A stretch of 64,000 nt of DNA from an uncultured Spirochaetota bacterium (lineage in GTDB: Bacteria > Spirochaetota > Spirochaetia > SZUA-6 > Fen-1364): positions 10,013 through 74,012 of the forward strand of contig CAWJSK010000015.1 of the NCBI GenBank assembly GCA_963845535.1, read 5' to 3'. The translations under genes and the position numbers were made by a program. Within the stretch, counting starts at the first letter, position 1; each line of letters starts with the position of its first letter. Of the stretch, positions 13,448 through 64,000 are shown piece by piece. The notes beneath the pieces are model-generated. The model did no database searches and was not told the origin of the DNA. It saw only the letters and a list, made by a program, of their open reading frames with translations.

Positions 13448-13459
13448 TGCATGTGCCGG

Positions 13460-47071: not shown

Positions 47072-47559
47072 TGTTTCCCTCCGCTTGGCATTTCATGGGG
47101 AAGGCGCCGCCTCCTGACTCCCACGGATGGCCCGCTGTTGACCAGCGTCTCCAGAAGCCATGCCCTCCCGCCGTTGTGCGTGCCCGCCAGCCGTGCATCC
47201 CAATCCTCAAGCATGGCGCGCAGGTCGTCGCGCAGACTCCGAAGGGCGCGGATGCGACTCTCCAGCTCTTCCAGTTTTTTCGCCGCGAGCGCGCGCACTT
47301 GCTTGCAGGGAGCGCCGCCTTGGTCCCGAACTTTGAGGAACCTGGCCAGCTCGTCCAGCGCGAACCCGACCGAAAGAGCATGCTGCACGAGCATCACCCG
47401 AGGTAGCGCGTCCGGCGGGTATTCGCGGTAGCCGTTTGAAGCCCGCCGTGAGGTAAGCAGGCCCTTGCGTTCGTAATGGCGCAGGGTGTCCGTGCTGAGC
47501 CCCGCCAGCCTGGCCAACTCGCCCGAACGCAACGGACCGCTTTTTATTGGATCACCCAT
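47068..47559 (-). CDS. MerR family transcriptional regulator
   Basis: HTH GELARLAGLSTDTLRHYERKGLL and a coiled-coil dimerisation helix. ATGA overlap with the downstream ICMT-like gene. Confidence 0.88.
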   Translation of the reverse strand: MGDPIKSGPLRSGELARLAGLSTDTLRHYERKGLLTSRRASNGYREYPPDALPRVMLVQHALSVGFALDELARFLKVRDQGGAPCKQVRALAAKKLEELESRIRALRSLRDDLRAMLEDWDARLAGTHNGGRAWLLETLVNSGPSVGVRRRRLPHEMPSGGKQ

Positions 47560-47565
47560 GATGGG

Positions 47566-47597
47566 AATATAAACCCTGGAACGAATTCCAGGGTCAA
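47566..47597 (-). promoter_or_regulatory. MerR-type promoter: -35 TTGACC, 19-bp spacer containing a 9-bp inverted repeat, -10 TTATAT
   Basis: The minus strand reads CTTGACCCTGGAATTCGTTCCAGGGTTTATATTCCCATCATG. The dyad is ACCCTGGAA (47573-81) / TTCCAGGGT (47586-94). The ATG follows only 7 nt after the -10. Confidence 0.65.
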
Positions 47598-47675
47598 GAA
47601 GTCTCTTGCGCTGTACTTCGCGATCATGTTCATGATAACGTTTCCAAAGTGCCGGCTGCTAGGAGGTAGATATTA

Positions 47676-48231: not shown

Positions 48232-48597
48232 TCAGATGGTGCGTCTTCGCCCTGCCGGGACAGCACTGACCATCCCATTCAAAGCCCGACGCTGCTTCTC
48301 GAATTTGTTGCGAACGACCCGCTCCACGCCCTCTGTCACCGCTTTGTAGCAATCGCAGGAAAGCCGGTAGTACGTCGAGGTGCCTTCCTTGCGATCCTCT
48401 TCAATTACCCCGGCAGCCTTGAGAATGGACAGGTGTTTAGAGACAGTCGATCCATCGGCGCCCACCATTTCCGTGAGTTCACAGACACAATAGGGTTTTT
48501 CCTCGAGCTTCTCTACCATGAACAGCCGGCTCGGGTGGGCGAGCGCCTTCAATACCTCTGCCCGCGATCTAGCTCGCAGCTTTTCGTTTTCGGTCAT
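48232..48597 (-). CDS. ArsR/SmtB family metalloregulator with CVC motif
   Basis: Start at MTENEK. LKALAHPSRLFMVEKLEEKPYCVCELTEMVGADGSTVSKHLSILKAAGVI. Confidence 0.88.
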   Translation of the reverse strand: MTENEKLRARSRAEVLKALAHPSRLFMVEKLEEKPYCVCELTEMVGADGSTVSKHLSILKAAGVIEEDRKEGTSTYYRLSCDCYKAVTEGVERVVRNKFEKQRRALNGMVSAVPAGRRRTI

Positions 48598-48604: not shown

Positions 48605-48643
48605 TCCTTGGCAATATTATCATGAATTGTTCTCGGGGTCAAT
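48605..48643 (-). promoter_or_regulatory. promoter-operator module copy 1 (upstream of the arsR-like gene)
   Basis: Minus strand: TTGACC (48637-42), 17 nt, TAATAT within TGATAATATTGCCA (48609-22), then AGGAGCCAAGAATG. Confidence 0.6.
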
Positions 48644-48728
48644 GGGCGCCGCAGCACGTGTCAAGGCGCCGCCGCACGTCACACCACAAGAACATGTGCG
48701 CTGCGGCCGAGCCGCAACGCATGACCGC

Positions 48729-49079
48729 CTACGCTTTCGCGAACTCGTCTGCCGCTTTCAAGAGCGGAGTCAGATACATGAGGGCAGGACCACCGTGCAT
48801 CACCACCGCCATGAATCCGGCGGAAATTATCTGGGCCCGCGTCGCCCCGGCTTCCACCGCGTTCCTGACGTGGAACGCGATGCACCATTCGCACTGGGCC
48901 CCGACAGAGAGACCGACGTTGATCAGCTCTTTCGTTCGCACGTCCAGCCCCTCTCCATCGGTGGCCTTCTGCAGAAAGTTCAGGAAGGCTCCCGTCTCGC
49001 TTGGAAACTCCTTTCTCAGTTTCCCCACCAGAACATTAACCTCATTGAGCCTCTCGCTCATCGTCACATCGCCGTTCAT
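48729..49079 (-). CDS. carboxymuconolactone decarboxylase (AhpD-like) family protein
   Basis: 116 aa with CxxC in GAQCEWCIAFH. Confidence 0.8.
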   Translation of the reverse strand: MNGDVTMSERLNEVNVLVGKLRKEFPSETGAFLNFLQKATDGEGLDVRTKELINVGLSVGAQCEWCIAFHVRNAVEAGATRAQIISAGFMAVVMHGGPALMYLTPLLKAADEFAKA

Positions 49080-49126
49080 ATGATACCTCCGTTCGTCTTT
49101 GTTCTTCCGGCCCTCGATGAGACCTG

Positions 49127-49456
49127 CTACGCAAGGCGAGTCAACCGACCCTCGCGTGCCGCCTCGACCAGCTCAAGAACCGACCCGTTCTCCGCGGTGA
49201 AGAGAATAATCCCCGCCACAGCAAGTCGATTTCGCGCTTCCCCCGAAAGTTTTCCAGTGACAAGCGCTCCGGCTCCCTGGCGAACCAGCCACGCCACTCG
49301 TGCAGCGCCCAGGGGGTCGGGCCAGGAAGCGCCGTCCTGCCCCCACGATTCGAAGCGTCCCTCCTCGCTCACCAGAACAAGCTGGCGGCTTTCTTCGAAA
49401 ATGGGGTCCAGCCACGCTCCCAGACCCGAGCCTTTTGCCGTGACCGCAATCTTCAT
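49127..49456 (-). CDS. NifB/NifX-family (dinitrogenase FeMo-cofactor-binding-like) protein
   Basis: MKIAVTAKGSGLGAWLDPIFEESRQLVLV...GAGALVTGKLSGEARNRLAVAGI. Confidence 0.65.
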   Translation of the reverse strand: MKIAVTAKGSGLGAWLDPIFEESRQLVLVSEEGRFESWGQDGASWPDPLGAARVAWLVRQGAGALVTGKLSGEARNRLAVAGIILFTAENGSVLELVEAAREGRLTRLA

Positions 49457-49543
49457 ATCGCGCACCCGTCCTTTCACCCTGGCTGACAAGCGGCGCGACG
49501 AACCACGCGGTTTCCCGACGACACCGCGGCGCCGCTGTTGACC

Positions 49544-49924
49544 CTACTCTCCCTTCGCGCTTTCCATCTTGGGCGCCTCAACCATCTTTTTAATGGCATC
49601 AGCCGCCTGAGAGGTATCCATATTTCGTATGTCCACCCCGTGAATGTTCTCCTTGCGGAATTCCGCGGACTCCAGCGCGTCACGGAACATCTTTACCTGC
49701 ATCGTCGGATCACAAGCGGCGACGTACAGCTCATCTGTGGATTTCCCCTTGAGCAGCGTTGAGAGGAAGCGATCTCCATCGGTGGCGCACAACTGGGGAT
49801 GAATTGCGATGTAGTCCACCAGTTTCTCACGCCGAATCGAATTGCCCACGTCGAAAATGTTCATCTTCTGGAACGATGGGCAGTTGCCTTGACACACGCA
49901 CAACAGAAGCCCTTTATTTGCCAT
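49544..49924 (-). CDS. hypothetical Cys-motif protein (126 aa)
   Basis: MANKGLLLCVCQGNCPSF... The start lies 1 nt after the stop of the upstream ferredoxin gene. Confidence 0.55.
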   Translation of the reverse strand: MANKGLLLCVCQGNCPSFQKMNIFDVGNSIRREKLVDYIAIHPQLCATDGDRFLSTLLKGKSTDELYVAACDPTMQVKMFRDALESAEFRKENIHGVDIRNMDTSQAADAIKKMVEAPKMESAKGE

Positions 49925-49925
49925 G

Positions 49926-50159
49926 TTACGCTCCTTTCGCGCTTGGCTGGGACACCTTTTCGGTGTCGCCAAAATAGCTGATTGCCTCAGTTGGGCAGAT
50001 CTTCGAGCATCCCCTGCAAAACTCAACGCACGCCTCGGGCTGTGCCACCACCGGATGGTCCTCACCGGCTTGGAAGACCCCGTGGGTGCAGAAATCCAGG
50101 CAAGTATTGCAGTTGGAACAAAGATCCGGGTCGATGATCGGATGCCAGTTTGCAGCCAT
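49926..50159 (-). CDS. 4Fe-4S dicluster ferredoxin (77 aa)
   Basis: CSNCNTCLDFC and CVEFCRGCSKICP. SD AAAGGAGG upstream. Confidence 0.8.
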   Translation of the reverse strand: MAANWHPIIDPDLCSNCNTCLDFCTHGVFQAGEDHPVVAQPEACVEFCRGCSKICPTEAISYFGDTEKVSQPSAKGA

Positions 50160-50180
50160 AAGCTGCCTCCTTTCTAGTGT

Positions 50181-50222
50181 TGGCTTAATGGCAATATTAC
50201 CACTAATTCATTATTTGTCAAG
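50181..50222 (-). promoter_or_regulatory. promoter-operator module copy 2 (upstream of the ferredoxin operon)
   Basis: Minus strand: TTGACA (50216-21), 16 nt, TAATAT within TGGTAATATTGCCA (50189-202), then TTAAGCCA. Confidence 0.6.
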
Positions 50223-50232
50223 TGGCCTGAGC

Positions 50233-50262
50233 TTAAAAGAGCCGGTCGAGGGGACCGGCTCT
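50233..50262 (-). terminator. intrinsic terminator after the CoADR-rhodanese gene
   Basis: Minus strand: GAGCCGGTC-CCCTC-GACCGGCTC followed by TTTTAAG. Confidence 0.7.
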
Positions 50263-50311
50263 TTGCATCCCCTTGGGGAGGGGTGACCGTCAGGGTCTGA
50301 ACAGGCGGTTC

Positions 50312-52039
50312 TTATGAGGCTGCCTGGATTGAATCGTCCCTCAAGATGATGTCATTTTCATAGATGTCCTCATTGGACTGCTTCTGCATCGCCAATTGAT
50401 ATGTCTTATAGCCACCGCTCAGATTCCTGACTCTGGCAAACCCATGCTGCTTGAGAATGCGAAGCGCAATGTACCCGCGCAAACCCACCTGGCAGTAGAC
50501 GTAGAGGTTCTTCTCCTGAGACAATTCAGAAAGGCGGTCGCGCAGGGAATCCACCGGAATGTTGACCGCGCCGGGGATTGAGCCCTGCTGAAACTCATCC
50601 TGCGTGCGGACATCGATAATCACGGAGGTGGCGCTGTCAATCTGCGGGATCTCGTTCCAATGAAAGACCGGGCAGTCGCCTTTCAGGATATTGGCGGCCG
50701 TATAGCCGGCAATGTTGACCGGATCCTTGGCAGAGGAGTACATGGGCGCGTAGGCGAGCTCGAGTCTCTCGAGATCAAACACCGTCAACCGCGAACGCAT
50801 GGCGGTGGATATGACATCGATCCGTTTGTCCACGCCGTCGTAGCCGATGATCTGGGCTCCCAGCACCCTTCCATCAGGCCGGGAAAACAGCAGTTTGACG
50901 GCCATCAGTGTGCCACCAGGATAGTATCCTGCGTGGGACGGGGAGTGGGTAAAGGACTTCTCGTATGATACTCCCATTCGCTTCAGCGCCCCTTCGTTGG
51001 CGCCGGTGGTGGCCACTGTGATATCGAAGACCTGCACGATGGAGGTGCCTTGCGTGCCTTGGTAGGATTCAGTGACGCCGCAGATATTGTTCGCGGCGAT
51101 GCGGCCCTGCTTGTTGGCCGGTCCGGCAAGAGGGATCAGCGCGGCTTCTCCGGAGGTGAAGTCTTCCACCTCAATCGCATCCCCAACGGCGTAAATGTCA
51201 GGATTGGAAGTCCTCAAGTGCTCATCAACTTTGATCCCGCCCCTCGGTCCGAGCACGACTCCCGCCTCACGCGCCAGTTGGACGTCAGGCTTCACGCCGA
51301 CACCGAGCACGGCCAGATCTGCCCGAAGGATTTTTCCGTCCGTAAGCCGGATTTCCAGGAAACCGCGTTTCTCAGAGAACGAGGCAACGGCCTCCTTGAG
51401 GTAGAACTCCACGCCTTTTGTCTTGAGATGCTGATGGACAAGGGCAGCCATGTCAAAATCCAGCGGCGCGATGACATGGTCAGCGAGCTCGACGATTGTT
51501 ACCCGCGTTCCCGTTGCGGCAAGGTTTTCCGCCACTTCAAGACCGATGAACCCCGCCCCGATGACGACCGCACGTTGCGGCTTCTGTTTTTCAACGAGCT
51601 CCTTGATCTTCAGGGTGTCTGGGATCGTACGCAGGGTGAAGATCCTTTCCGAATGGATGCCCGGAAGATTCGGCCGAAAAGGTTCTGCACCTGGCGATAA
51701 AAGAAGCTTGTCATAGCGCTCGATGTACCTGCTCTCCTTCGCATGATCGAAGATTTCCACCTCTTTCCGCTCAGGAATGATGCGGCGGACTTCTGACCGG
51801 AGCCGAACCTTGATGTGGAACCGCTTCCACATGCTTTCGGGGGTCTGCACCAGCAGATCTTTGGTTTCCGGGATAACACCTCCTATGTGATAGGGCAGGC
51901 CGCAGTTTGCATACGAGATGTAGTCCCCCTTTTCGACAATGATGATCTCTGCCCCCTCGTTGATTCTTCTCAGACGAGCTGCTGCCGTTGCGCCGCCGGC
52001 CACGCCACCTACAATGATAACCTTGAGTGCCATATCCAA
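50312..52039 (-). CDS. CoA-disulfide reductase / NADH oxidase-like flavoprotein with C-terminal rhodanese domain
   Basis: GGVAGGATAAARLRR, active-site SYANCGLPYHIGG, and a C-terminal rhodanese loop YCQVGLRG. Confidence 0.85.
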   Translation of the reverse strand: MDMALKVIIVGGVAGGATAAARLRRINEGAEIIIVEKGDYISYANCGLPYHIGGVIPETKDLLVQTPESMWKRFHIKVRLRSEVRRIIPERKEVEIFDHAKESRYIERYDKLLLSPGAEPFRPNLPGIHSERIFTLRTIPDTLKIKELVEKQKPQRAVVIGAGFIGLEVAENLAATGTRVTIVELADHVIAPLDFDMAALVHQHLKTKGVEFYLKEAVASFSEKRGFLEIRLTDGKILRADLAVLGVGVKPDVQLAREAGVVLGPRGGIKVDEHLRTSNPDIYAVGDAIEVEDFTSGEAALIPLAGPANKQGRIAANNICGVTESYQGTQGTSIVQVFDITVATTGANEGALKRMGVSYEKSFTHSPSHAGYYPGGTLMAVKLLFSRPDGRVLGAQIIGYDGVDKRIDVISTAMRSRLTVFDLERLELAYAPMYSSAKDPVNIAGYTAANILKGDCPVFHWNEIPQIDSATSVIIDVRTQDEFQQGSIPGAVNIPVDSLRDRLSELSQEKNLYVYCQVGLRGYIALRILKQHGFARVRNLSGGYKTYQLAMQKQSNEDIYENDIILRDDSIQAAS

Positions 52040-52068
52040 CCTCCAATCCTTTCGTGGATGCTCCTCGC

Positions 52069-52154
52069 GCCTTATTCGCGGACCACGTCAGGGTCCGCTT
52101 CCAGCTTTGCGGCCAGCTCCTTGCGAAGCTGCTCCTTGGGAATGCTTCTGGCCA
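52069..52154. repeat. 86-bp direct repeat, copy A (gene-remnant side of chrA)
   Basis: 84 of 86 nt identical to 53432-53517. It lies within a 32-codon remnant ORF (52072..52170, minus): MNVRDLARSIPKEQLRKELAAKLEADPDVVRE. Confidence 0.9.
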
Positions 52155-52184
52155 GATCGCGAACATTCATAGACAGACAAACCC

Positions 52185-53402
52185 TCATGCCAATCCCAAC
52201 GCCAGCAGGCCGCTCCACAGGGCCAGCCCGCCAAGAAAGACCCACAGAATGTCAATCTTAAACCAGCGCACTGCCGCAAACGCAGCACCCGCCAAAGCCA
52301 GCGAAGCTGGTCCCGTGAGAGCTGCACCGCCAAGCTGTAGCAGCACCACCGCCAGCAGACCGACGAAAGACGCCATGACCCCGGCCAGCGCGCCGCGCAC
52401 TGCTTTCAGATTTCGAATGTGCGCAAAAACCTCGGTGAACAACAGCGTCATGGCAAAGGAGGGCGAAAACATGGCAAAGGTTGCCAACAGACCGCCCAGA
52501 AAGCCGGCCACCTTGTAGCCGATGAACGTGGCGGTAATCAAGAACGGGCCAGGCGTAATCTGCCCCAGGGCAATCCCATCCGCAAATTGGTTGAGCGGCA
52601 TCCAGTGATGAACGTCCACTGTTTCTGCCTGGATAAGCGGGATGATGGCGGAACCGTTTCCGAATGCCACCGAACCGATCTTGAACAACGATAAGGAGAG
52701 CCTGCCCATTTCTGACCTCAGGCTCCATGAAAAAGCGACCACACCTATGATTACCGCTGCCACCGTCGCTATACCCGCCCAGCGCTTTGCTGATGCGTGT
52801 TCGATTTTGGAGAATGGTTTGCGCGCTTCAGCAGTTTTCCCTTTGCCTGTCACCGGGCGAATCAGCAGAGCGCCCAACGCCAGCGCGACCAACACGATCA
52901 AAACCGCATTGAACTTTAGCAGCAAAGAGACAAAGGCCAGCAGCGTGATGACTGCCTGCGTGCGGTTCTGGATGTTGCGCCCACCCATCTCCAGCGTGAC
53001 GTTGAAGAGGATGCCCACAACCAGCGCTTCCAACCCCGAAAAGAGAGGATGCGCCCAGAGTAAATTGCCGGCGGCGAAGTAGAAGGCAGAAAGGACCGAC
53101 ATCAAAACAAAAGAAGGCAGGACAAATCCAGTTGTCGCAAAAACAGCGCCGATCACGCCACGCAGTTTGTAGCCCACATAGGCGGTGAAATCGACCATCA
53201 ACGGGCCGGGATACAGTTGGACCATTGCCAGCCCTTCGTTCATCTCCTCTTCACTCAGCCAGTGATTATCCATCACCAGCGCTTTGAGTTTCTGCAAGAT
53301 AGCCATGCCGAAGGCCGTGAGGCCGACGATGAAGTAGGAGGAAAAAATGGCCCGCAGGGATACGCGCGGACGGGATTCAGGCTTGTCTAATTCAGCAGTC
53401 AT
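52185..53402 (-). CDS. chrA: chromate ion transporter (CHR family)
   Basis: 405 aa with two homologous halves. Motifs FGMAILQKL...LYPGPLMV and FGNGSAIIPL...GQITPGP. Confidence 0.85.
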   Translation of the reverse strand: MTAELDKPESRPRVSLRAIFSSYFIVGLTAFGMAILQKLKALVMDNHWLSEEEMNEGLAMVQLYPGPLMVDFTAYVGYKLRGVIGAVFATTGFVLPSFVLMSVLSAFYFAAGNLLWAHPLFSGLEALVVGILFNVTLEMGGRNIQNRTQAVITLLAFVSLLLKFNAVLIVLVALALGALLIRPVTGKGKTAEARKPFSKIEHASAKRWAGIATVAAVIIGVVAFSWSLRSEMGRLSLSLFKIGSVAFGNGSAIIPLIQAETVDVHHWMPLNQFADGIALGQITPGPFLITATFIGYKVAGFLGGLLATFAMFSPSFAMTLLFTEVFAHIRNLKAVRGALAGVMASFVGLLAVVLLQLGGAALTGPASLALAGAAFAAVRWFKIDILWVFLGGLALWSGLLALGLA

Positions 53403-53431
53403 GTGCAGTTCCTTACCGCGCGCTTGTCAAT

Positions 53432-53517
53432 GCCTTATTCGCGGACCAAGTCAGGGTTCGCTTCCAGCTTTGCGGCCAGCTCCTTGCGAAGCTGCTCCTT
53501 GGGAATGCTTCTGGCCA
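53432..53517. repeat. 86-bp direct repeat, copy B (3' end of the intact ferredoxin-like gene)
   Basis: Covers the last 27 codons plus the stop of 53435..53785 (...ARSIPKEQLRKELAAKLEANPDLVRE). Confidence 0.9.
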
Positions 53518-53785
53518 ACTCCCGCACGTACTGGTCATCGTGAGGAAATGAAATCGCATTCCAGAGGCAACCCACCTGGCAGTTGTTGCATCCCACCATG
53601 CAGTGATCCTGAAAAAGCACCACTGCCTTCTTCTTTTCAGGATCGTACCCAAAAACGTTTCGCTTCTCCCCGCAGGTGACGACGCAAAAGCCACAACCGG
53701 TGCACTTGTCACTGTTGATCACCGGACCCCAACTGATCTTTGCGCGGTCGATTCCATGCCATTTCGAAAAAAAATCATCAGCCAT
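53435..53785 (-). CDS. ferredoxin-like 4Fe-4S protein (116 aa)
   Basis: WHGIDRAKISWGPVINSDKCTGCGFCVVTC...CMVGCNNCQVGC. Confidence 0.75.
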   Translation of the reverse strand: MADDFFSKWHGIDRAKISWGPVINSDKCTGCGFCVVTCGEKRNVFGYDPEKKKAVVLFQDHCMVGCNNCQVGCLWNAISFPHDDQYVRELARSIPKEQLRKELAAKLEANPDLVRE

Positions 53786-53799
53786 TTCCCTACCCTCCT

Positions 53800-54153
53800 T
53801 TATGTGGCGCCGCTTTTGACAACATGATCAGGAAACTTCTCCAGCCGTGCCTGAAGCTCTTTCTTTACCGTTGGCAAGACCTTGAACTTCGACATTGCTT
53901 TCTTCACGAATTTCTCGGGTGCTTCGGGAAAAGTTATCGCTGTCTCGGGGCACACCCTCCCGCATGTCGTGCATCCGACGGCACAATTGCCGGGATTTGC
54001 CACCAGGTAGCGGTCTTGAGACTTTGACCAGGCGAATACGCCGCTGCCGCAACTCAAAAGACACAACCCACAGTTTGTGCATTTCGATTCGTCGATCGTC
54101 GGATGCCAGACAAAGTTTGACCTTCCGACCCCATGCCATTGCTTTTCCGCCAT
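53800..54153 (-). CDS. ferredoxin-like 4Fe-4S protein (117 aa, paralog)
   Basis: WHGVGRSNFVWHPTIDESKCTNCGLCLLSC...CAVGCTTCGRVCP. Confidence 0.75.
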   Translation of the reverse strand: MAEKQWHGVGRSNFVWHPTIDESKCTNCGLCLLSCGSGVFAWSKSQDRYLVANPGNCAVGCTTCGRVCPETAITFPEAPEKFVKKAMSKFKVLPTVKKELQARLEKFPDHVVKSGAT

Positions 54154-54210
54154 CGCGGTTACCTCCGTTCGAGTGGTTTCCGTTCCTTACTTTGATGATT
54201 GAAAGGACGT

Positions 54211-54630
54211 TCAAATCTTGCTGATCTGTCCCGATACAGGAATCGCCAGCCGCAGGGTCGAAACGACCGTGCTGTTTCGCTCGGCAAGGCCGAGCAGCCT
54301 GCGAAGCTTTTCCTCGTCGACGTCGGTCCGGATCCGCATCTCAAAGCGAATCTCGGTGAGAGTCGGAGGCTTGTCCTGACGCACACCAAAGACGTCCACC
54401 TCCACGTCGGACAGACGCACGCGGCTCAGCTCCGCCACCATGCTGAGGCTGCTGGTCAGGCAGGCGCCAACCGCGGAAAGAAGGGTCTCGACGGCGTTGA
54501 AGCCAGCGGAAGCGTCCCCCCTGTGCGCGCCAAGCACCATGGAGAAGTCCCGCACCGTAGCGGCCGTCCGGATTCCGTCCGGCTGCCGTGCGAGGTGTAC
54601 CTGATAATGCTGTGTACCCATGGCTGCCAT
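54211..54630 (-). CDS. OsmC/Ohr family peroxiredoxin-like protein
   Basis: 139 aa: FNAVETLLSAVGACLTSS...STLRL. Confidence 0.75.
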   Translation of the reverse strand: MAAMGTQHYQVHLARQPDGIRTAATVRDFSMVLGAHRGDASAGFNAVETLLSAVGACLTSSLSMVAELSRVRLSDVEVDVFGVRQDKPPTLTEIRFEMRIRTDVDEEKLRRLLGLAERNSTVVSTLRLAIPVSGQISKI

Positions 54631-54641
54631 CTCTATCTTTC

Positions 54642-54755
54642 TGGCTTAGTGGCAATATTGCCATGATAAAGATATTTCGTCAAGAGGCTCTTGTAAAGAT
54701 CGCAGAACCCCCATCACGCTGTCCTGAGTCGTGGCGTAAAGAATGCAGCATCAAG
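54642..54755 (-). promoter_or_regulatory. promoter-operator module copy 3 plus 114-nt repeat R1 (upstream of osmC)
   Basis: Minus strand: TTGACG (54678-83), 17 nt, CAATAT within the perfect palindrome TGGCAATATTGCCA (54650-63). A second dyad is CAAGAGGCTCTTG (54681-93). Conserved upstream blocks are CGACTCAGGA and GATGCTGCATTCTT. Confidence 0.65.
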
Positions 54756-54850
54756 TCTGGGCTCAAGTTGACACCATAATGGTAGCTTCGCGAGCCGTTG
54801 TTCGTAGCGGATTTCCAAAGCCGCATGTCGAAGCGGAAGGTGATTATATA

Positions 54851-55867
54851 TCAACTGACCGTCAACGCAGGAGTTATTCTTGCGCTGAGCTTCCTGCACA
54901 CCTCGTCGATGGCCGCGTCGTTCAGTGCGATCATGTGATCTGCAAGCGCCGTAAGACAGCTAAGATTTTTCCTTCCGGCGTCATCTATCGCCAGCGAGCA
55001 GCCGCCGAGAGCTGCGTTGATGCGGATATAACGGACTCCGCTCATGCGACTGAGCTGATGGCTGACCGCTTCGCTTTGGCCCGCCGACATGATTGCACCG
55101 ATCGGAAACCCTTTCGCCGGATTCACCCACTCCATGTAGCCCCATGAATATATGTCCCGATAGCGGTACCCATGTTGGTGATCTCCGGTGCCAATGGAAA
55201 GGATGAGAAACTCGGATTCCGTAGGGAATATCTTCGTCGACTCCACGTACGCAAGGCCAGACGGATTGTTCGCGAATACCGCTCCGTCGATCAGTGAGAA
55301 TCTGATGTGCGGCGCGCCAACAGGACTGATCCGTGCGGGAGGAAAGTACGTCGGGGCGGCCGCGGACGCACGCGCAACGTCACGCATATAGAAGTCTGGA
55401 TCTGTCAGCCATTCGCCACGCGCGGGACGACGCTTCATGCAGTGCGGCTGCATCGCTTCCGTGTCGAAACTGGTTATGAGCAGGTTCGTCGCCGCGCTCT
55501 TCAGTGAAGCATCTCCGAAGATCTCCCGAAGGAACCGCTCAAACGGTCCAGGCGAGTATTTGTGACGAAATGCCTGCATGACGGCGTGGATCGCGCTGCG
55601 AAACGACGGTGGGAATATCTCAGTACCGCGGCGCGCATACAATTCGACGATTTCCGAAGCTGAGTAGCGCTCCGTTCCGTCTTCTTTGCGCAGTGCAATC
55701 GCAAGCGCGACAAGCGCTCCGCTGGAGGTTCCTGCGATGAGATCGAAGAGCTCTGAAAATGGCCGGCTTTCACCTGCCAGGTCCAGACGGTGACGGATCT
55801 CCTGAAGGACCCGGGCAGGAAGGAGCCCCCGAATGCCTCCCCCGTCGATCGAAAGAATCGTGACCAT
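54851..55867 (-). CDS. patatin-like phospholipase
   Basis: DGGGIRG, GTSSGA (GxSxG), DGAVFANNP. Confidence 0.88.
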   Translation of the reverse strand: MVTILSIDGGGIRGLLPARVLQEIRHRLDLAGESRPFSELFDLIAGTSSGALVALAIALRKEDGTERYSASEIVELYARRGTEIFPPSFRSAIHAVMQAFRHKYSPGPFERFLREIFGDASLKSAATNLLITSFDTEAMQPHCMKRRPARGEWLTDPDFYMRDVARASAAAPTYFPPARISPVGAPHIRFSLIDGAVFANNPSGLAYVESTKIFPTESEFLILSIGTGDHQHGYRYRDIYSWGYMEWVNPAKGFPIGAIMSAGQSEAVSHQLSRMSGVRYIRINAALGGCSLAIDDAGRKNLSCLTALADHMIALNDAAIDEVCRKLSARITPALTVS

Positions 55868-55873
55868 CGCCGG

Positions 55874-56116
55874 CTATTCCTTGAGGCTTACCACTTTGCG
55901 CTGAAAGCATATTTGATGCGCAGTCCCGCGGGTAGCGTTTGGAGTGGAAGTGTTGGTGAAAGTGCCGATGGCCTTCCTGTTTGTTCCCGCAAGATTGTCA
56001 ACCACGAAGTATGCCGCGGGGACAATCACGCCCGCAGCGTACGAAGCCCTTGTGCAGAGCACAATGTCCTGGTTTGCAGAGTTGGAGTCGCTTTCCGGCT
56101 GAGCCTGGAATATCAA
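55874..56116 (-). CDS. hypothetical 80-aa ORF between pfkA and the patatin gene
   Basis: It overlaps the pfkA stop by 4 nt and ends 6 nt before the patatin start. No motif, so the support is positional only. Confidence 0.3.
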   Translation of the reverse strand: MIFQAQPESDSNSANQDIVLCTRASYAAGVIVPAAYFVVDNLAGTNRKAIGTFTNTSTPNATRGTAHQICFQRKVVSLKE

Positions 56117-57081
56117 TCCAGGCTCCTCGCAAGCTCGAGCAAGTGCAGATCGAGCGGTTTCTTGTTTGCGACCACTTCGGAAAGGGGCGTGGGTTTGATT
56201 TCGCCTTTGATCAGGCCAACCAGAACGCCCACTTCGTCTCGTTCCAATTGATCGGTTGCCGCAGCGCCGAGCCGGCTGGCAAGAATCCGATCAAACGCCC
56301 CGGGGTTGCCTCCCCGCTGAACGTGGCCCAATCTTGTCGACCGGAGGTCAAAGCCAAGCCGCTCGTGGTGTTCGGTAAGATAGGCTGCGAGTTTATCTGC
56401 GTTATATTCAGATCCTTCCGCGACCACGATGATCGCATGGGGCTTTCCCTTTTTGTAGGCTGCTTCGATCCGTTCGGCAAGGATCTCGGGATCCGTCTTC
56501 ACTTCAGGGATGACGACAGCCTCGGCGCCGCCCGCGATGGCAGTCATCAACGCCAGATAACCGCAATCTCTGCCCATGACCTCAAGAATGAACGCCCGCT
56601 GGAGCGACGATGCAGTGTTCTTCAATCGGTCGAGAGCCTCCAAGGCTATATTGAGAGCAGTGTCCACTCCGATTGTCATCTCAGAACCGTACAGATCGTT
56701 GTCAATCGTAGAGGCGACGCCCACGACCGGGAAGTCCATTTGGGACAACGCATAGGATCCTGTCTGAGATCCATTACCACCGATGACCACCAACCCTTCG
56801 ATGTCATGTTCGCGCAGAATGCTCACCGCCTTCAGTTGGGCGGCTCTCGTCTTGAAGTCTGGACAGCGAGCACTTCCCAGGACGGTTCCTCCTCTTTGGA
56901 TTATCCCGCCTACTTCGCGTGGACCGAGAGGGACAGCGTTCCCTGAGATCAGCCCTATGAATCCCTGCTCAAACCCGATGACTTCCCAGCCCCTGTTCAG
57001 ACCTGTGCGCACAACAGCACGTATCGCGGCGTTCATGCCAGGCGCATCACCACCACTCGTCAATACCGCTATCCGTTTCAT
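56113..57081 (-). CDS. pfkA: ATP-dependent 6-phosphofructokinase
   Basis: MKRIAVLTSGGDAPGMNAAIR, IGGNGS, EVMGRDCGYLAL. SD GGAGGA upstream. Confidence 0.9.
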   Translation of the reverse strand: MKRIAVLTSGGDAPGMNAAIRAVVRTGLNRGWEVIGFEQGFIGLISGNAVPLGPREVGGIIQRGGTVLGSARCPDFKTRAAQLKAVSILREHDIEGLVVIGGNGSQTGSYALSQMDFPVVGVASTIDNDLYGSEMTIGVDTALNIALEALDRLKNTASSLQRAFILEVMGRDCGYLALMTAIAGGAEAVVIPEVKTDPEILAERIEAAYKKGKPHAIIVVAEGSEYNADKLAAYLTEHHERLGFDLRSTRLGHVQRGGNPGAFDRILASRLGAAATDQLERDEVGVLVGLIKGEIKPTPLSEVVANKKPLDLHLLELARSLD

Positions 57082-57284
57082 AATGACATCCTCCACAGTT
57101 GCGCTGCATGGCGCGGTCTTCTGAAGAATCCATGCATACCCGTCGGATATTGGACTGCCAGCGCGCCAAGCGAAAGCCACCCAGCGGAAATCAGGGCCTT
57201 GGTCTTTCCAATTCCGTCCCGATTCCGTCGGGTTGGCTTGCGACGTGGACCCGATATTCCTTGTATGCCTATAACAGTCACTCT

Positions 57285-57398
57285 TGGCTTAATGGCAATA
57301 TTGCCATAATAGGGAAGATATGTCAAGAGACTCTTGCAGATACCGCAGGAAACCCCGCATGCAATCCTGAGTCGCGGCGCGAAGAATGCAGCATCGAG
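57285..57398 (-). promoter_or_regulatory. promoter-operator module copy 4 plus 114-nt repeat R2 (about 200 nt upstream of pfkA)
   Basis: Minus strand: TTGACA (57321-26), 17 nt, CAATAT within the perfect TGGCAATATTGCCA (57293-306). The second dyad is CAAGAGACTCTTG (57324-36). It is collinear with R1. Confidence 0.65.
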
Positions 57399-60556: not shown

Positions 60557-60563
60557 GCTTTGC

Positions 60564-60776: not shown

Positions 60777-60790
60777 TGTGACCTCCCTCC

Positions 60791-61165: not shown

Positions 61166-61176
61166 CTCTGTGCCTC

Positions 61177-61557: not shown

Positions 61558-61575
61558 ATTACGAAACTCCTTTCT

Positions 61576-61872
61576 TTACGTACGATTCCCGCTCAAGAGG
61601 GCTTCAATCGCACGCCGTATGGCTGGCACGGAAATCTTCCCGCCGCTGCTGACCACGTCGCCCTCAGCCAACACCAGCGGTAGCTCAGCATCGACGGGCA
61701 TGGGCGGGCAGTCAGCGTCGAAAAGGTCATGGTACTTCACCTGCACCGCATCTTCGAAGCGTGCTTTCAACTGACCCTGTGCCCAACGCGCCACTTCGCG
61801 CCAGCTTTCCTTCACGCCCTCCTTGCAGGCTACAGGCGCCCCGATGATCTGGATGAGAACGGAGCCTCTCAC
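61576..61872 (-). CDS. thioredoxin-fold protein, ArsD/YuzD (DUF1462)-like, lacking the ArsD Cys triad
   Basis: 98 aa: VLIQIIGAPVACKEG...WAQGQLKARF...LPLVLAEGDVVSSGGKISVPAIRRAIEAL. ATGA overlap with the arsA stop. The family call is from memory of YuzD/ArsD patterns. Confidence 0.5.
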   Translation of the reverse strand: MRGSVLIQIIGAPVACKEGVKESWREVARWAQGQLKARFEDAVQVKYHDLFDADCPPMPVDAELPLVLAEGDVVSSGGKISVPAIRRAIEALLSGNRT

Positions 61873-63719
61873 GTCGCCACCTTCTCCCCGTAAAGTTGCG
61901 CGGCCAGCCGCGAGAGCATTGCCACGCCCTTCACTTCACGGGGCAAAAGCGGTATCTGCACGAGGGGCAGACCGAAGCGTTCGCCTATTTCCGCAAGATA
62001 TTTCTCCTGCATGGCCCGTCGGGCCCGCACAAATGGTGTGGATGCCCGTTCGGGTGGGATGACGAAGTTCGCCACCACAAGACTTGGGCGAATCCCCACA
62101 GTTTCCAGTTCCCGCGCCGCCCGCCACGCTTCGAGAATGGGTGTTGCCTCCGGATACATGACAAAGGCGAAAGTGCTCTGCTCCTGGTCGCGCATCATGT
62201 CGATCACCTGGGCGAACCGCTTCTTGGCAACGTCATCGGCGGCGGAAGCATCCACGGAGGCAAAGACTTTCACATCGATCTGCTTGCTCCAGTCGATGGG
62301 CAGCTCAAGCAGACGAAGGGTGTGCCCCGTCGGGGCGGTGTCGAAAACCACCGCCTGCCAGTCTGGCTGGGAAGCATATTCGATGAACTTGTCGAACGCG
62401 GCCATCTCCTCCGTGCAGGGCGAGTTGAGCTCCTCCTCCATCACCGCGATGGCTGATTCGGGCCGACCGCGCTTGCGGGCATCCTCGAGGATACGCGCCT
62501 TGTAGGTCTCCGCCGCGGTCTTCGGATCGATCTTGACCGCCCACAGGTCAGGCTGCCCTGCGACGGCCGCGATTTTATCTCCAACAGGGGTGTCCAACAC
62601 GTCGCCCAGATGCGCTGCCGGATCCGTGGTCAAAAGCAGGGTCTTGTATCCCTGCTGCGCCAGCCAGACGGCGGTGACGCACGAGGCGACGGTTTTGCCC
62701 ACGCCGCCTTTGCCCGCAAAGAACAGGGTCCGGCGATGGCCGTTGGGCTGGATGCGGGAGCGAATGTCATCGAAGCTCGATGCAAAATCCTCCCCGACGG
62801 TTTTCTCATCTGCCGCGTCAGAGTCCAGCCGAGCCTTCTCGCCGTCAAAGAAGACTCTCCCCACCTCCCGAAGCCCCTCCACCCCCATGATTTCGCCTGG
62901 CAGCAGGATCATGCGCTTCTGAGGCATGGCGAACTCGCGCTTGATCTGAACGAGATAATCAGCCTGCATTTCGGCGCGGGCGGCGAACAGAGGGTCTTCG
63001 GCGTCGTCGGCCTGGATGATGCCGTTGACGATCAAGCGGAAATTGTTGATTCCCAGTTTTTTAAGCTCACCGATGGCGCGCCGTGTCTCCCGGATGGCTA
63101 TGGCTTCGGGGTGCAAGACGAACACAAAGGTCGAGAACGATGCGTTGCGCAGGGCGGCAAGGGCTCGTTCATACTTGAGCTTGGCGTCCTGAATGGCGGC
63201 GGCGGGACCGATGCAGGTCTGCCCGCTGCCCGCGCTGGCGGCGTCAATGGATTGCGTCCATTCGGCGGGCAGTTCCAGCAAGCGGATGGTGTGGCCGGTC
63301 GGGGCGGTGTCGAAAATCACCACGTCGTAAGCGTTTCCGTCCTGAGCGGGCGAATCCAGGAAGTCGGTGAAGCGGTCGAAGGCGGCGACCTCCGCCGTGC
63401 AGGGACCGCTCATCTGTTCTTCCATCACCTGCACCATCTGGGGAGGGAAAGCGGCGCGGATGGGCGCCATGGCGCGGTCAATGTATTCCTGCGTCGACTT
63501 GTCGGGGTCGATTTCCATGGCGGCAAGGCCCGGCACGCCCGCGATCGGCGTGATCTGGTGTCCGATTTCCTGCTCGAACACGTCGGAGAGATTCGAAGCC
63601 GGGTCGGTGGTGACGATGAGAGTGCGCTTCCCCTCGTCCGCATAGCGCACGGCATGCGTACACGCCAGACTGGTCTTGCCCACCCCGCCTTTGCCGGAGA
63701 AGAACATGGACTGGGTCAT
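61869..63719 (-). CDS. arsA: arsenite/antimonite-stimulated ATPase ArsA (two-domain)
   Basis: Two GKGGVGKT P-loops and two DTAPTGHT signatures. Cys are present in the contexts of the R773 metalloid site (SGPCTAEVAAFD, GQTCIGP, NSPCTEEMAAFD). Confidence 0.9.
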   Translation of the reverse strand: MTQSMFFSGKGGVGKTSLACTHAVRYADEGKRTLIVTTDPASNLSDVFEQEIGHQITPIAGVPGLAAMEIDPDKSTQEYIDRAMAPIRAAFPPQMVQVMEEQMSGPCTAEVAAFDRFTDFLDSPAQDGNAYDVVIFDTAPTGHTIRLLELPAEWTQSIDAASAGSGQTCIGPAAAIQDAKLKYERALAALRNASFSTFVFVLHPEAIAIRETRRAIGELKKLGINNFRLIVNGIIQADDAEDPLFAARAEMQADYLVQIKREFAMPQKRMILLPGEIMGVEGLREVGRVFFDGEKARLDSDAADEKTVGEDFASSFDDIRSRIQPNGHRRTLFFAGKGGVGKTVASCVTAVWLAQQGYKTLLLTTDPAAHLGDVLDTPVGDKIAAVAGQPDLWAVKIDPKTAAETYKARILEDARKRGRPESAIAVMEEELNSPCTEEMAAFDKFIEYASQPDWQAVVFDTAPTGHTLRLLELPIDWSKQIDVKVFASVDASAADDVAKKRFAQVIDMMRDQEQSTFAFVMYPEATPILEAWRAARELETVGIRPSLVVANFVIPPERASTPFVRARRAMQEKYLAEIGERFGLPLVQIPLLPREVKGVAMLSRLAAQLYGEKVAT

Positions 63720-64000
63720 CTGGCGCCCCCATTCAGTGATGCTTTGACTTCGTCAATACTTGGGTAAGCGCCCGTTTTGACAACCTGGCCCCGCACAACG
63801 GTGATCGGAAGGCATTCCATCTGCTTTGCGCGCACCAGGCGCATCACCTCGGCGTTGCCAAGAAAGGCCTTGGGGTTGCTGCTCATCTGGTAGCGTTCCA
63901 CGCGCAGGTTGTCGCGCTGGAGAGTCAGGATCATCTCATTGACGTCCAGCAGGGTCTGGTCAAGTGTAGGTCCGCAAAGTCCCGTAGGACAACACATCGG
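63716..64000 (-). CDS. arsD: arsenical metallochaperone ArsD (5' end beyond the window)
   Basis: (P)MCCPTGLCGPTLDQ...ERYQMSSNPKAF...LPITVVRGQVVKTGAYP carries the Cys12/13/18-type motif. The frame stays open to the window edge. Confidence 0.85.
   Translation of the reverse strand, partial: PMCCPTGLCGPTLDQTLLDVNEMILTLQRDNLRVERYQMSSNPKAFLGNAEVMRLVRAKQMECLPITVVRGQVVKTGAYPSIDEVKASLNGGAR

What the first reader, a model, noticed from the sequence alone, without database searches (positions are those of the whole stretch)
48605..57326. One promoter-operator module occurs four times and ties an ArsR-family gene to three stress operons
The same architecture sits on the minus strand upstream of four units. 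Those units are the arsR-like gene (start 48597), the ferredoxin / CVCQGNCP protein / NifX-like / CMD unit (start 50159), the osmC / two ferredoxin-like / chrA / CoADR-rhodanese unit (start 54630), and pfkA / 80-aa ORF / patatin (start 57081).

The architecture is -35 TTGAC(A/G/C), 16-17 nt, then a -10 (C/T)AATAT forming the centre of the palindrome TGGCAATATTGCCA. The palindrome is perfect at 54650-63 and 57293-306, TGGTAATATTGCCA at 50189-202, and TGATAATATTGCCA at 48609-22. Three copies continue with YTAAGCCA.

A dyad overlapping the -10 is a classic repressor layout. ArsR/SmtB repressors bind AT-centred inverted repeats and usually autoregulate. The local ArsR-like protein carries the CVC motif known from As(III)-sensing ArsR.

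The predicted regulon mixes thiol/persulfide chemistry (CoADR-rhodanese, OsmC, AhpD-like CMD), odd ferredoxins, NifX-like proteins, a chromate exporter, glycolysis and a phospholipase. I cannot map this combination to any described stress regulon.
Basis: partly seen in the sequence, partly recalled or inferred. Interest (0 to 1): 0.72.

Follow-up and report, generated by a model that had tools for sequence, protein, structure and literature searches.

The report
ArsR operator regulon in arsenic island
Four promoters in a 9-kb stretch carry the same 14-bp palindrome, which comparison with other genomes shows to be the binding site of the local ArsR-type repressor; this is an ordinary kind of arsenic-response circuit, but its operator has not been described and its target genes are unusual.

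Summary
TGGCAATATTGCCA (up to 2 mismatches) occurs four times in 64 kb, against 0.12 expected. Each copy is centred on the -10 hexamer of a TTGAC/16-17 nt/YAATAT promoter, upstream of arsR, fd-hdrA-like-nifX-like-CMD, osmC-fd-fd-chrA-CoADR-rhodanese and pfkA-orf80-patatin.

- In every relative of this ArsR examined that has its own promoter (55-98% identity, plus 37-62% relatives in at least five phyla), the same palindrome lies about 20-25 nt before the arsR start.
- A weight matrix built only from non-window sites recovers exactly the four window sites (24-33 bits; the next best is 9).
- In relatives the operator also precedes acr3, arsP, Trx_3 (ArsE), DGC, Trx/CcdA, sufCBD and a CDF gene.
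- In an 84% relative, the fd-hdrA-like-nifX-CMD unit carries acr3 and arsR in one operon.
- The window also holds arsD-arsA.

So this is the local regulon of an uncharacterised, widespread ArsR clade inside an arsenic island, not an unmappable stress regulon. The clade has invariant Cys37, Cys39 and Cys83. The effector, probably As(III) or Sb(III), and binding itself are inferred.

It is a new member of a known kind and of moderate interest. No searchable paper contains the operator sequence, and the targets include glycolysis, CoA/persulfide redox and Fe-S proteins.

The parts
48609..48622 (-). Operator O_arsR (TGATAATATTGCCA on the minus strand). It overlaps the -10 TAATAT (48619-48614). The -35 TTGACC is at 48642-48637. 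The operator begins 25 nt before the arsR ATG.
   Evidence: 24.4 bits. The operator starts 24-26 nt before the arsR ATG in L035, L036, L037, L039, L041, L048, L052, L054, L056 and L057.
48232..48597 (-). arsR, 121 aa, ArsR/SmtB family. Cys37-Val-Cys39 lies in the alpha3 region, with Cys81 and Cys83 after the wing.
   Evidence: HTH_5, E = 3e-13. NF033788 scores 77.6 bits (cut-off 55). Cys37 and Cys83 are in 121 of 121 aligned sequences, Cys39 in 120 and Cys81 in 74.
50189..50202 (-). Operator O_fd (TGGTAATATTGCCA). The -10 TAATAT is at 50199-50194 and the -35 TTGACA at 50221-50216.
   Evidence: 30.6 bits. The orthologous promoter before the ferredoxin gene in L048 also carries a site, at 2967.
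48729..50159 (-). Unit 2: ferredoxin (50159-49926), 126-aa HdrA-N-terminal-like CVCQGNCP protein (49924-49544), NifX-like protein (49456-49127) and CMD/AhpD-like protein (49079-48729).
   Evidence: In L048-L051 the same four genes are followed by acr3, a second nifX-like gene and arsR, all co-directional and closely spaced, which suggests one operon.
50236..50264 (-). Intrinsic terminator closing the osmC...CoADR unit, immediately upstream of the -35 of P_fd.
   Evidence: a 12-bp GC-rich hairpin followed by a U-run, -29.3 kcal/mol, z = -4.45.
54650..54663 (-). Operator O_osmC (perfect TGGCAATATTGCCA). The -10 CAATAT is at 54660-54655 and the -35 TTGACG at 54683-54678.
   Evidence: 27.4 bits. 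L036 has sites at 5764 and 5841 before osmC.
50312..54630 (-). Unit 3: osmC (54630-54211), two ferredoxin-like genes (54153-53800 and 53785-53435), chrA (53402-52185) and CoA-disulfide-reductase-rhodanese (52033-50312).
   Evidence: chrA is bracketed by a 96-nt direct repeat and is absent from L036.
57293..57306 (-). Operator O_pfkA (perfect TGGCAATATTGCCA). The -10 CAATAT is at 57303-57298 and the -35 TTGACA at 57326-57321.
   Evidence: 32.6 bits. L036 has a site at 4150 before pfk.
54851..57081 (-). Unit 4: pfkA (57081-56113), an 80-aa ORF (56116-55874) and a patatin-like phospholipase (55867-54851). The unit is preceded by a leader of about 210 nt.
   Evidence: No Rfam family matches the leader.
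61869..63997 (-). Context: arsD (cut by the window end) and arsA, followed by ylbF x2, sufC, sufBD and an Nramp gene. This marks the region as an arsenic island. No operator for this unit lies inside the window.

Best explanation
The 14-bp palindrome TGGYAATATTGCCA is the operator of the 121-aa ArsR/SmtB-family repressor encoded at 48232-48597.

Each operator is fused to its promoter. The left half-site supplies the TGn extended -10 and the first bases of the -10 hexamer YAATAT. The right half-site runs almost to the predicted transcription start. A bound ArsR dimer would therefore occlude sigma-70 contacts and repress all four units, including arsR itself (autoregulation).

The regulator belongs to a widespread, uncharacterised clade found inside ars clusters of anaerobes. 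The most likely inducer is a thiophilic metalloid, As(III) or Sb(III), possibly methylarsenite. It would be bound by the invariant Cys37/Cys39 (the CVC of alpha3) and Cys83, releasing the protein from DNA.

The four units form the local arm of an arsenic-stress regulon. In this Spirochaetia MAG it covers:
- Fe-S and low-potential electron carriers;
- thiol/persulfide and peroxide chemistry (OsmC, AhpD-like, CoADR-rhodanese);
- an inserted ChrA;
- PfkA and a patatin lipase.

Shown: the sites, their promoter geometry, their conservation beside arsR, and their association with ars genes. Inferred: binding, repression, the effector and the sensing residues.
For: Site statistics:
- Four sites against 0.12 expected.
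- An independent PWM recovers only these four in 64 kb.
- They are the best sigma-70-like promoters of the region.
- A strong terminator separates unit 3 from P_fd.

Regulator-operator pairing:
- The site starts 24-26 nt before arsR in relatives of 55-98% identity: L035, L036, L037, L039, L041, L048, L052, L054, L056 and L057.
- Four of the 6 ArsR-adjacent GTDB hits carry the module directly before an arsR that is 37-47% identical. These are a Phycisphaerae MAG, a Solibacteraceae MAG, Malonomonas and a Spirochaetota MAG; the -35 TTGAC is kept in three of the four, and the Solibacteraceae site has TTGGCT.
- In the other two, both Deltaproteobacteria MAGs, it lies just downstream of arsR, before arsP_1 or a DGC gene.
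- Four of 5 metagenome matches to the full module lie directly before arsR.

Arsenic link:
- Operator sites precede Trx_3-arsP (the same site faces an arsM-like gene) in L041, which also holds acr3 and two arsC genes.
- They precede Trx_3-DGC-arsP, the Trx/CcdA and acr3 divergent region, and DUF169-DUF6951 in L054.
- They precede Trx_3-DGC-arsP in L056 and SLAC1-Trx_3-arsP-acr3 in L057.
- They precede arsR-arsP_1 in L003 and L015, arsR-SBF/Acr3 in L034 and DGC in L027.
- They precede sufCBD, a CDF gene and the fd-CVC-nifX-CMD-acr3-nifX-arsR operon in L048.
- arsD-arsA lie in the window.

Sensor:
- Cys37, Cys39 and Cys83 are invariant or nearly so in the 121 aligned sequences (the query plus its 120 closest homologues).
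- In R773 ArsR the Cys32/Cys34 pair of the CVC suffices for As(III) response.
- An ArsR-like protein with CxC...CxC controls As-induced hgcAB in P. mercurii (10.1101/2022.10.17.512643).
Against: - There is no experimental binding, transcription-start or induction data.
- The third cysteine of the classical type-1 As(III) site (Cys37 of R773 ArsR, CVCDLC) is absent.
- No arsenite pump lies in any of the four window units, and several targets (pfkA, patatin, CoADR-rhodanese) have no established arsenic role.
- In L048 the operator also precedes a CDF cation-efflux gene, and an Nramp gene adjoins the window cluster. A divalent-metal effector (Cd, Zn or Pb) therefore cannot be excluded.
- Three clade members (L037, L039, L052) are orphan arsR genes with no ars genes within 10 kb.
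- The rest of the source genome could not be scanned, so the regulon size and the genome-wide specificity of the motif are unknown.
Confidence: 0.72

Rival explanations
1. The regulator and operator are the same, but the effector is not arsenic. The Cys-rich ArsR would sense sulfane sulfur, persulfide or oxidative thiol stress, as BigR and SqrR do, and would switch on persulfide and peroxide defences.
For: The targets include CoADR-rhodanese, OsmC and an AhpD-like CMD protein. BigR is the best-scoring solved structure (E = 4e-9). In Ornatilinea apprima a related gene island holds DsrE, TusA, a YeeE-like transporter, a rhodanese and TauE.
Against: The NCBIfam BigR model scores 54.7 bits against a cut-off of 155. 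BigR's sensing cysteine in alpha2 aligns with Glu/Lys here, and the CVC has no BigR counterpart (alignment). Clade members and their operators sit next to acr3, arsC, arsP, arsM-like, arsD and arsA genes rather than sqr, pdo or sulfur-oxidation genes. The O. apprima island uses different ArsR paralogues and lacks this operator.
Confidence: 0.12
2. The regulator and operator are the same, but the physiological inducer is a divalent thiophilic metal (Cd, Zn or Pb) bound at a four-cysteine CxC...CxC site, as in CadC.
For: This protein has four cysteines: C37, C39, C81 and C83. The authors of the ND132 study raise the same possibility for their four-Cys ArsR2. The operator precedes a CDF efflux gene in L048. 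An Nramp gene adjoins the window cluster.
Against: Cys81 is present in only 74 of 121 aligned clade sequences, so a four-Cys site is not a clade feature. The dominant neighbours are arsenic genes, not cadA or czc genes.
Confidence: 0.1
3. The palindrome is bound by another regulator encoded nearby: the MerR-family protein at 47068-47559 or the DUF134-NifX protein at 45060-45719.
For: Both genes lie within 4 kb of the cluster.
Against: MerR operators lie inside 19-20 bp promoter spacers (PMC1526738 abstract). Here the spacers are 16-17 bp and the dyad is centred on the -10. The merR-DUF6951 intergenic region has its own, different 8-4-8 palindrome. tblastn finds a MerR homologue only in L035, the 98% counterpart of the window, and in none of the other operator-bearing loci fetched by then, whereas arsR is present in L036 and in the six ArsR-adjacent GTDB loci.
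Confidence: 0.03
4. The four copies are only a duplicated strong-promoter cassette, and the dyad is incidental to an AT-rich extended -10. There is no shared repressor.
For: P_osmC and P_pfkA share a 114-nt duplicated segment at 77% identity.
Against: P_arsR and P_fd share only the -35, the dyad and the AGCCA tail with the others. The dyad, and not the flanks, is conserved across phyla and is always next to arsR. The right half-site TTGCCA has no role in a sigma-70 promoter.
Confidence: 0.03

Closest known systems
E. coli R773 and chromosomal ArsR (type-1 As(III)-responsive repressor of the ars operon)
   Same: It belongs to the ArsR/SmtB winged-helix family. It has a CVC pair at the start of the alpha3 region. 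It is an autoregulated repressor whose operator lies at its own promoter, and it is associated with arsD/arsA, acr3 and arsC genes.
   Different: The third cysteine of CVCDLC is missing, and an invariant Cys83 after the wing is present instead. The NCBIfam E. coli-type model scores 37 bits against a cut-off of 97. From memory, the R773 ArsR site is an imperfect dyad upstream of the -35; here a perfect palindrome is centred on the -10. The targets here extend beyond detoxification genes.
Pseudodesulfovibrio mercurii ND132 ArsR2 (hgcAB regulator) and the ArsR5-ArsP-ArsE-DGC operon (10.1101/2022.10.17.512643)
   Same: These are ArsR-like proteins of anaerobes with a CxC...CxC cysteine pattern that control ferredoxin-type (HgcB) genes and respond to arsenic. 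The arsP/Trx_3(ArsE)/DGC gene sets match the operator-controlled operons found here in L027, L054 and L056.
   Different: The cysteine spacing differs: 47/49/86/88 against 37/39/81/83. No operator was defined in that work.
SmtB/CzrA/CadC metal sensors with 12-2-12 operators
   Same: They are dimeric ArsR/SmtB repressors that bind AT-centred inverted repeats overlapping promoters. From memory of the SmtB and CadC sequences, Cys81 and Cys83 fall at the positions of the first two alpha5-site ligands (D104/H106 in SmtB). I did not test this alignment.
   Different: The half-site sequence differs: TGGCAAT against TGAACA-type. The ligand set here is all cysteine. The gene neighbourhood is arsenic genes rather than zinc or cadmium genes.
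BigR/SqrR persulfide-sensing ArsR-family repressors
   Same: BigR is the best hit among solved structures, and the target genes here include thiol and persulfide enzymes.
   Different: The BigR model scores well below its cut-off, and the sensing cysteines are not conserved.

Membership tests
ArsR/SmtB family metalloregulator | Winged-helix HTH_5 domain that passes the curated family thresholds. | tested here: met
   Pfam PF01022 gives E = 3.1e-13 and 49.8 bits against a cut-off of 22. NCBIfam NF033788 gives 77.6 bits against a cut-off of 55.
ArsR/SmtB family metalloregulator | A palindromic operator at the promoter of its own gene (autoregulation) and of its target operons. | tested here: met
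   This is met at sequence level only. The dyad lies 25 nt before arsR and at three further promoters. The position is conserved in at least 19 relative loci. Physical binding was not testable.
ArsR/SmtB family metalloregulator | Ligand-induced release from DNA. | not testable with these tools
   This needs EMSA or fluorescence anisotropy with purified protein and candidate ligands.
Type-1 As(III)-sensing ArsR (R773 type) | Cys32-X-Cys34-X-X-Cys37 triad in alpha3 (ELCVCDLC). | tested here: inconclusive
   The sequence is YCVCELT. The CVC pair is present and is found in 120-121 of the 121 aligned clade sequences, but the third cysteine is absent. The ND132 paper's text says Cys32 and Cys34 alone suffice in R773 ArsR. 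The E. coli-type model NF007528 scores 37.1 bits against a cut-off of 97.
Type-1 As(III)-sensing ArsR (R773 type) | Genomic association with arsenic resistance genes. | tested here: met
   arsD and arsA lie in the window. Genes for Acr3, ArsC, ArsP, an ArsM-like protein, Trx_3 and DGC lie next to clade members, many behind the operator.
BigR/SqrR sulfane-sulfur sensors | An equivalog-level sequence match and the conserved alpha2/alpha5 cysteine pair. | tested here: not met
   NF040642 scores 54.7 bits against a cut-off of 155. In the BigR alignment its cysteine (LVCTL) faces MVEKL in this protein.
MerR-type operator | The dyad lies inside an over-long (19-20 bp) -35/-10 spacer. | tested here: not met
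   The spacers are 16-17 bp and the dyad is centred on the -10 hexamer.

The most novel reading that the evidence does not exclude
This ArsR clade may not be a plain detoxification switch. It may be a broader metabolic regulator that, on sensing a thiophilic metalloid or a thio-arsenic or sulfane-sulfur species, rewires glycolysis (pfkA here; a pyruvate kinase lies in the L048 island), CoA/persulfide redox, Fe-S supply (sufCBD in L048) and membrane lipids.

A second possibility is that the conserved, uncharacterised fd / HdrA-N-terminal-like / NifX-like / AhpD-like module, which is co-operonic with acr3 in L048, is a new anaerobic arsenic-handling or Fe-S-repair system. The sensing site (alpha3 CVC plus Cys83) would then be a fourth, undescribed As(III)-site architecture in the family.
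Probability: 0.2. Interest if true: 0.6.

Novelty: new member of a known kind. Interest (0 to 1): 0.4.

Why it matters
It gives an uncharacterised but widespread ArsR clade of anaerobes (Spirochaetota, Desulfobacterota, Acidobacteriota, Planctomycetota and metagenomes) a concrete operator consensus, TGGYAATATTGCCA fused to an extended -10. With this consensus its regulon can be read directly from any genome or metagenome.

It also assigns a regulatory context, probable arsenic or metalloid stress, to several families of unknown role. These are the HdrA-N-terminal-like 126-aa protein, the small NifX-like proteins, HgcB-like ferredoxins, DGC, DUF169 and DUF6951. It further suggests that PfkA, CoADR-rhodanese and Suf are wired into the metalloid response.

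The compact promoter-operator cassette could serve as a portable biosensor part. None of this changes how ArsR repressors are understood to work.

Tried and rejected
- **GTDB representative scan.** The source genome is not among the representatives, so no genome-wide site count was possible. Twenty-eight of the 34 hits have no ArsR homologue within the fetched locus of up to 8 kb, and are close to the roughly 17 matches expected by chance from my own arithmetic.
- **ArsA look-up.** I tried to extend past the window end to test for a fifth operator before arsD. The protein is not on record, and the look-ups were then exhausted.
- **Rfam.** Nothing matches in the cluster or in the 210-nt pfkA leader.
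- **Literature.** No searchable paper contains GGCAATATTGCC, or AATATTGCCA together with ArsR.
- **Weaker sites.** The best additional PWM hit is at 47633-47646 (9.2 bits), in the merR/DUF6951 intergenic region. It is within shuffle noise and lacks proper -35/-10 geometry, so I rejected it.
- **Ornatilinea apprima.** Its island has fd-CVC-nifX but different ArsR paralogues (32-42% identity) and no operator. The accessory module is therefore not tied to this one regulator.
- **Other readings.** A MerR-type operator, a BigR-type sensor and a plain promoter duplication are rejected for the reasons given under the rival explanations.
- **Structure prediction.** I did not run it, because the tool returns no coordinates and could not test whether the cysteines lie close together.

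Full report

Yes. On the minus strand of 48-58 kb, the palindrome TGGCAATATTGCCA with up to two mismatches occurs exactly four times in the 64-kb window. The sites are 48609-48622, 50189-50202, 54650-54663 and 57293-57306. Shuffles predict 0.12 matches, and none of 100 reached four.

All four copies read AATATTGCCA-NNN-AGCCA. A sigma-70 consensus scan returns the same four places as the best promoter-like sites of the region:

| Promoter | -35 | Spacer (nt) | -10 |
|---|---|---|---|
| arsR | TTGACC | 17 | TAATAT |
| fd | TTGACA | 16 | TAATAT |
| osmC | TTGACG | 17 | CAATAT |
| pfkA | TTGACA | 17 | CAATAT |

The TG of the left half-site forms a TGn extended -10 (flags it at the two TAATAT promoters; at the other two it is read from the sequence). 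The promoter and the dyad are therefore built from the same bases.

- The arsR product is 121 aa, with HTH_5 at E = 3e-13.
- The ferredoxin unit encodes Fer4, a 126-aa protein with no Pfam hit that weakly resembles the N-terminus of HdrA, a Nitro_FeMo-Co (NifX-like) protein and a CMD/AhpD-like protein.
- The osmC unit encodes OsmC, two Fer4 proteins, ChrA and a CoA-disulfide-reductase-rhodanese fusion.
- The last unit encodes PFK, an 80-aa ORF and a patatin-like protein.

A hairpin of -29 kcal/mol with a U-run (z = -4.45) lies between the CoADR gene and the -35 of P_fd. Units 3 and 2 are therefore separate transcripts.

**2. Whose site is it?**

I tested the regulator-operator pairing by phylogenetic footprinting.

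*Close and mid-range relatives of the ArsR were located on contigs.*
- In every one that has its own promoter, a TGGYAAnnTTnCCA site begins 24-26 nt before the arsR start. This holds for L035 (98% identity), L036 (88%), L048 (84%), L041 (67%), L037 (67%), L052 (65%), L039 (63%), L054 (63%), L056 (60%) and L057 (55%).
- L056 and L057 were not used for training. Each contains exactly two sites above 20 bits: one before arsR and one before the neighbouring ars operon.

*An exact-pattern scan of 596 Gb of GTDB genomes gave 34 hits.*
- My arithmetic puts the chance expectation near 17.
- Six of the 34 lie beside an ArsR homologue of 37-49% identity. These are in a Phycisphaerae MAG, a Solibacteraceae MAG, two Deltaproteobacteria MAGs, Malonomonas rubra and a Spirochaetota MAG.
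- In four of the six the module sits directly before arsR; three of these keep the -35 TTGAC at the right distance, and the Solibacteraceae site has TTGGCT. In three of the four the arsR ATG follows AGCC directly, which implies a near-leaderless mRNA.
- In the two Deltaproteobacteria MAGs the module lies just downstream of arsR, before arsP_1 or a DGC gene.

*A metagenome scan for the complete module gave five hits.* The pattern was TTGAC, 15-18 nt, GGYAATATTGCCA-NNN-AGCC. Four hits lie directly before arsR homologues. The fifth lies before a Trx_3 gene followed by a ferredoxin 42% identical to the window's 117-aa ferredoxin.

*A symmetrised PWM made only from these non-window sites scores the four window sites at 24-33 bits.* The next best score in 64 kb is 9.2, and shuffle maxima range from 3 to 11.8. 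Two of the training sites come from the 88% lineage; the rest are distant.

I conclude that the dyad is the cognate operator of this ArsR clade. Because it is centred on the -10, the protein should act as a repressor, including of its own gene.

**3. What does the regulon do?**

The relatives resolve this, because the clade lives in arsenic clusters.

| Locus | Genes preceded by an operator site | Other ars genes in the locus |
|---|---|---|
| L041 | arsR; Trx_3-arsP (the same site faces an arsM-like gene) | acr3, two LMW-PTP arsC genes |
| L054 | Trx_3-DGC-arsP; the Trx/CcdA and acr3 divergent region; DUF169-DUF6951; arsR | |
| L056 | Trx_3-DGC-arsP; arsR | acr3, two arsC genes |
| L057 | SLAC1-Trx_3-arsP-acr3; arsR | |
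| L003, L015 | arsR-arsP_1 | |
| L012 | arsP_1 | |
| L034 | arsR followed by an SBF/Acr3-type carrier | |
| L027 | a DGC gene | |

The 84% relative L048 is the most telling.
- The window's exact fd / CVC-protein / nifX / CMD unit continues into acr3, a second nifX-like gene and arsR; the seven genes are co-directional and closely spaced, which suggests one operon behind an operator site.
- Further sites flank the divergent sufCBD and CDF promoters.
- The island also holds osmC, arsD, arsA, a Usp gene and a pyruvate kinase.

The window itself carries arsD-arsA-ylbF-ylbF-sufC-sufBD and an Nramp gene just upstream of P_pfkA. The four units are therefore the local arm of an arsenic or metalloid island.

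The accessory genes fall into four groups: low-potential ferredoxins, an HdrA-like Fe-S protein and NifX-like proteins; AhpD/OsmC peroxidase-type proteins; CoADR-rhodanese; and Suf. They fit, by inference, repair or avoidance of damage by a thiol- and Fe-S-reactive toxicant.

The site before pfkA is conserved in the 88% lineage (L036). I can offer only speculation for the role of PfkA and patatin, such as compensating glycolytic flux or membrane remodelling.

**4. Effector and sensing site (inference)**

- Among the query and its 120 closest homologues, Cys37 and Cys83 are invariant, Cys39 is present in 120 of 121, and Cys81 in 74 of 121.
- The CVC pair corresponds to the Cys32/Cys34 pair that suffices for As(III) sensing in R773 ArsR. 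The third R773 cysteine is missing here (paper text).
- From memory of the SmtB and CadC sequences, Cys81 and Cys83 fall at the positions of the first two alpha5-site ligands. I did not test this.
- P. mercurii ArsR2 has a CxC...CxC pattern, and the hgcAB genes it controls are induced by arsenic (10.1101/2022.10.17.512643). It is the nearest published analogue.
- The protein is not a BigR-type persulfide sensor. The model scores 54.7 bits against a cut-off of 155, and the sensing cysteine is not aligned.

My probabilities are about 0.85-0.9 that the dyad is this ArsR's operator, and about 0.6 that As(III)/Sb(III)-type metalloids are the inducer. Divalent thiophilic metals and sulfane sulfur or oxidants are the main alternatives.

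**5. Rivals to the regulator assignment**

- A MerR-type operator is excluded by geometry: the spacers are 16-17 bp and the dyad is on the -10. tblastn also found a MerR homologue only in L035, the 98% counterpart of the window, and in none of the other operator-bearing loci searched. The merR/DUF6951 intergenic region has its own, different palindrome.
- A pure promoter duplication explains the 114-nt similarity between P_osmC and P_pfkA. It does not explain the cross-phylum conservation of the dyad alone.

**6.

- The AGCCA tail is lineage-dependent.
  - In Malonomonas it completes a perfect 28-bp palindrome, GGCTATTTGGCAATATTGCCAAATAGCC; the two Deltaproteobacteria MAGs carry near-perfect versions.
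  - In several phyla it abuts the arsR ATG.
  - In L037, L039, L041 and L048 it is replaced by a GGAG Shine-Dalgarno sequence.
  - Its role, whether outer operator contacts or initial transcribed sequence, is unexplained.
- chrA is a recent insertion into the osmC operon. It is bracketed by a 96-nt direct repeat of the preceding ferredoxin gene's 3' end (94% identity) and is absent from L036.
- In L036 the ferredoxin unit is fused to the CoADR gene with no operator of its own. The number of operator-controlled promoters therefore varies between close relatives.

**7. Source and limits**

- The exact window proteins are in NCBI as 'MAG: Spirochaetia bacterium', on a 465,874-bp contig.
- An attempt to extend beyond the window, to the arsD promoter, failed.
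- No searchable paper contains the operator sequence.

**8. Verdict**

- In kind this is a classical ArsR/SmtB autoregulated repressor circuit. What is new is the operator consensus of a widespread, unstudied clade, and a local regulon that reaches into glycolysis, CoA/persulfide redox and Fe-S proteins.
- I class it as a new member of a known kind, with interest 0.4.

Noticed in passing
window 52069-52164 and 53432-53527, flanking chrA at 52185-53402: A 96-nt direct repeat (94% identity) duplicates the 3' end of the 116-aa ferredoxin gene on both sides of chrA. The 88%-identity relative L036 has the ferredoxin gene followed directly by CoADR-rhodanese. chrA therefore looks like a recent insertion into the osmC operon.
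   Followed up: partly
window 54642-54755 and 57285-57398: The osmC and pfkA promoters share a 114-nt segment at 77% identity. It extends about 70 nt upstream of the -35 and is absent from L036. This looks like duplication of a whole promoter cassette in this lineage. The function of the upstream part is unknown.
   Followed up: partly
window 57082-57292 (minus strand): pfkA has a leader of about 210 nt between the operator and its ATG, against about 85 nt in L036. No Rfam family matches it. I did not fold it or compare it further.
   Followed up: no
window 47574-47593 and 47633-47646: The divergent merR/DUF6951 intergenic region holds a perfect 8-4-8 palindrome, CCCTGGAAcgaaTTCCAGGG, which is a candidate MerR operator. 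A weak ArsR-like site (TGATAACGTTTCCA, 9.2 bits) lies nearby but is within shuffle noise. DUF6951 sits behind a genuine operator in L054.
   Followed up: partly
window 49544-49924 (minus strand); L060 10001-10357: The 126-aa CVCQGNCP protein has no Pfam domain and weakly matches the N-terminus of HdrA. Its homologues are 70-90% identical; the named ones come from Anaerolineae/Chloroflexota (Ornatilinea, Bellilinea), where NCBI calls it 'HdrA-like'. In the loci examined here (window, L035, L036, L048-L051, L060) it is flanked by a small ferredoxin and a NifX-like gene. In O. apprima this trio sits next to a different ArsR paralogue, without this operator.
   Followed up: partly
L003 5227-5250, L025 7206-7229, L034 2273-2294, L043, L045, L046: In several phyla the arsR ATG follows the operator tail directly (AGCC-ATG). 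With a transcription start about 7 nt after the -10, this implies a leaderless or near-leaderless arsR mRNA. In the window the leader would be about 10 nt and would begin with GGAG.
   Followed up: no
window 58836-63997 (minus strand): arsD-arsA is followed, on the same strand, by two YlbF/YmcA-family genes, sufC and sufBD. The arrangement is conserved in L036. It is an unusual coupling of the ArsA ATPase with Fe-S assembly genes. The promoter lies beyond the window end.
   Followed up: no
window 45060-45719 (plus strand): An ORF fuses DUF134, a putative DNA-binding domain, to a NifX-like Nitro_FeMo-Co domain. It is a third small NifX-like protein near the cluster.
   Followed up: no
window 13450-13561 (minus strand): A TPP riboswitch (71.6 bits) lies upstream of a cytosine/purine/thiamine-type permease at 12008-13384. 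Two tRNA genes lie at 40198-40270 and 41732-41805.
   Followed up: no
L035 5576-8284: In the 98%-identity ENA contig, chrA and the CoADR-rhodanese gene are split into several short ORFs. These are probably frameshift errors of that assembly rather than pseudogenes.
   Followed up: no
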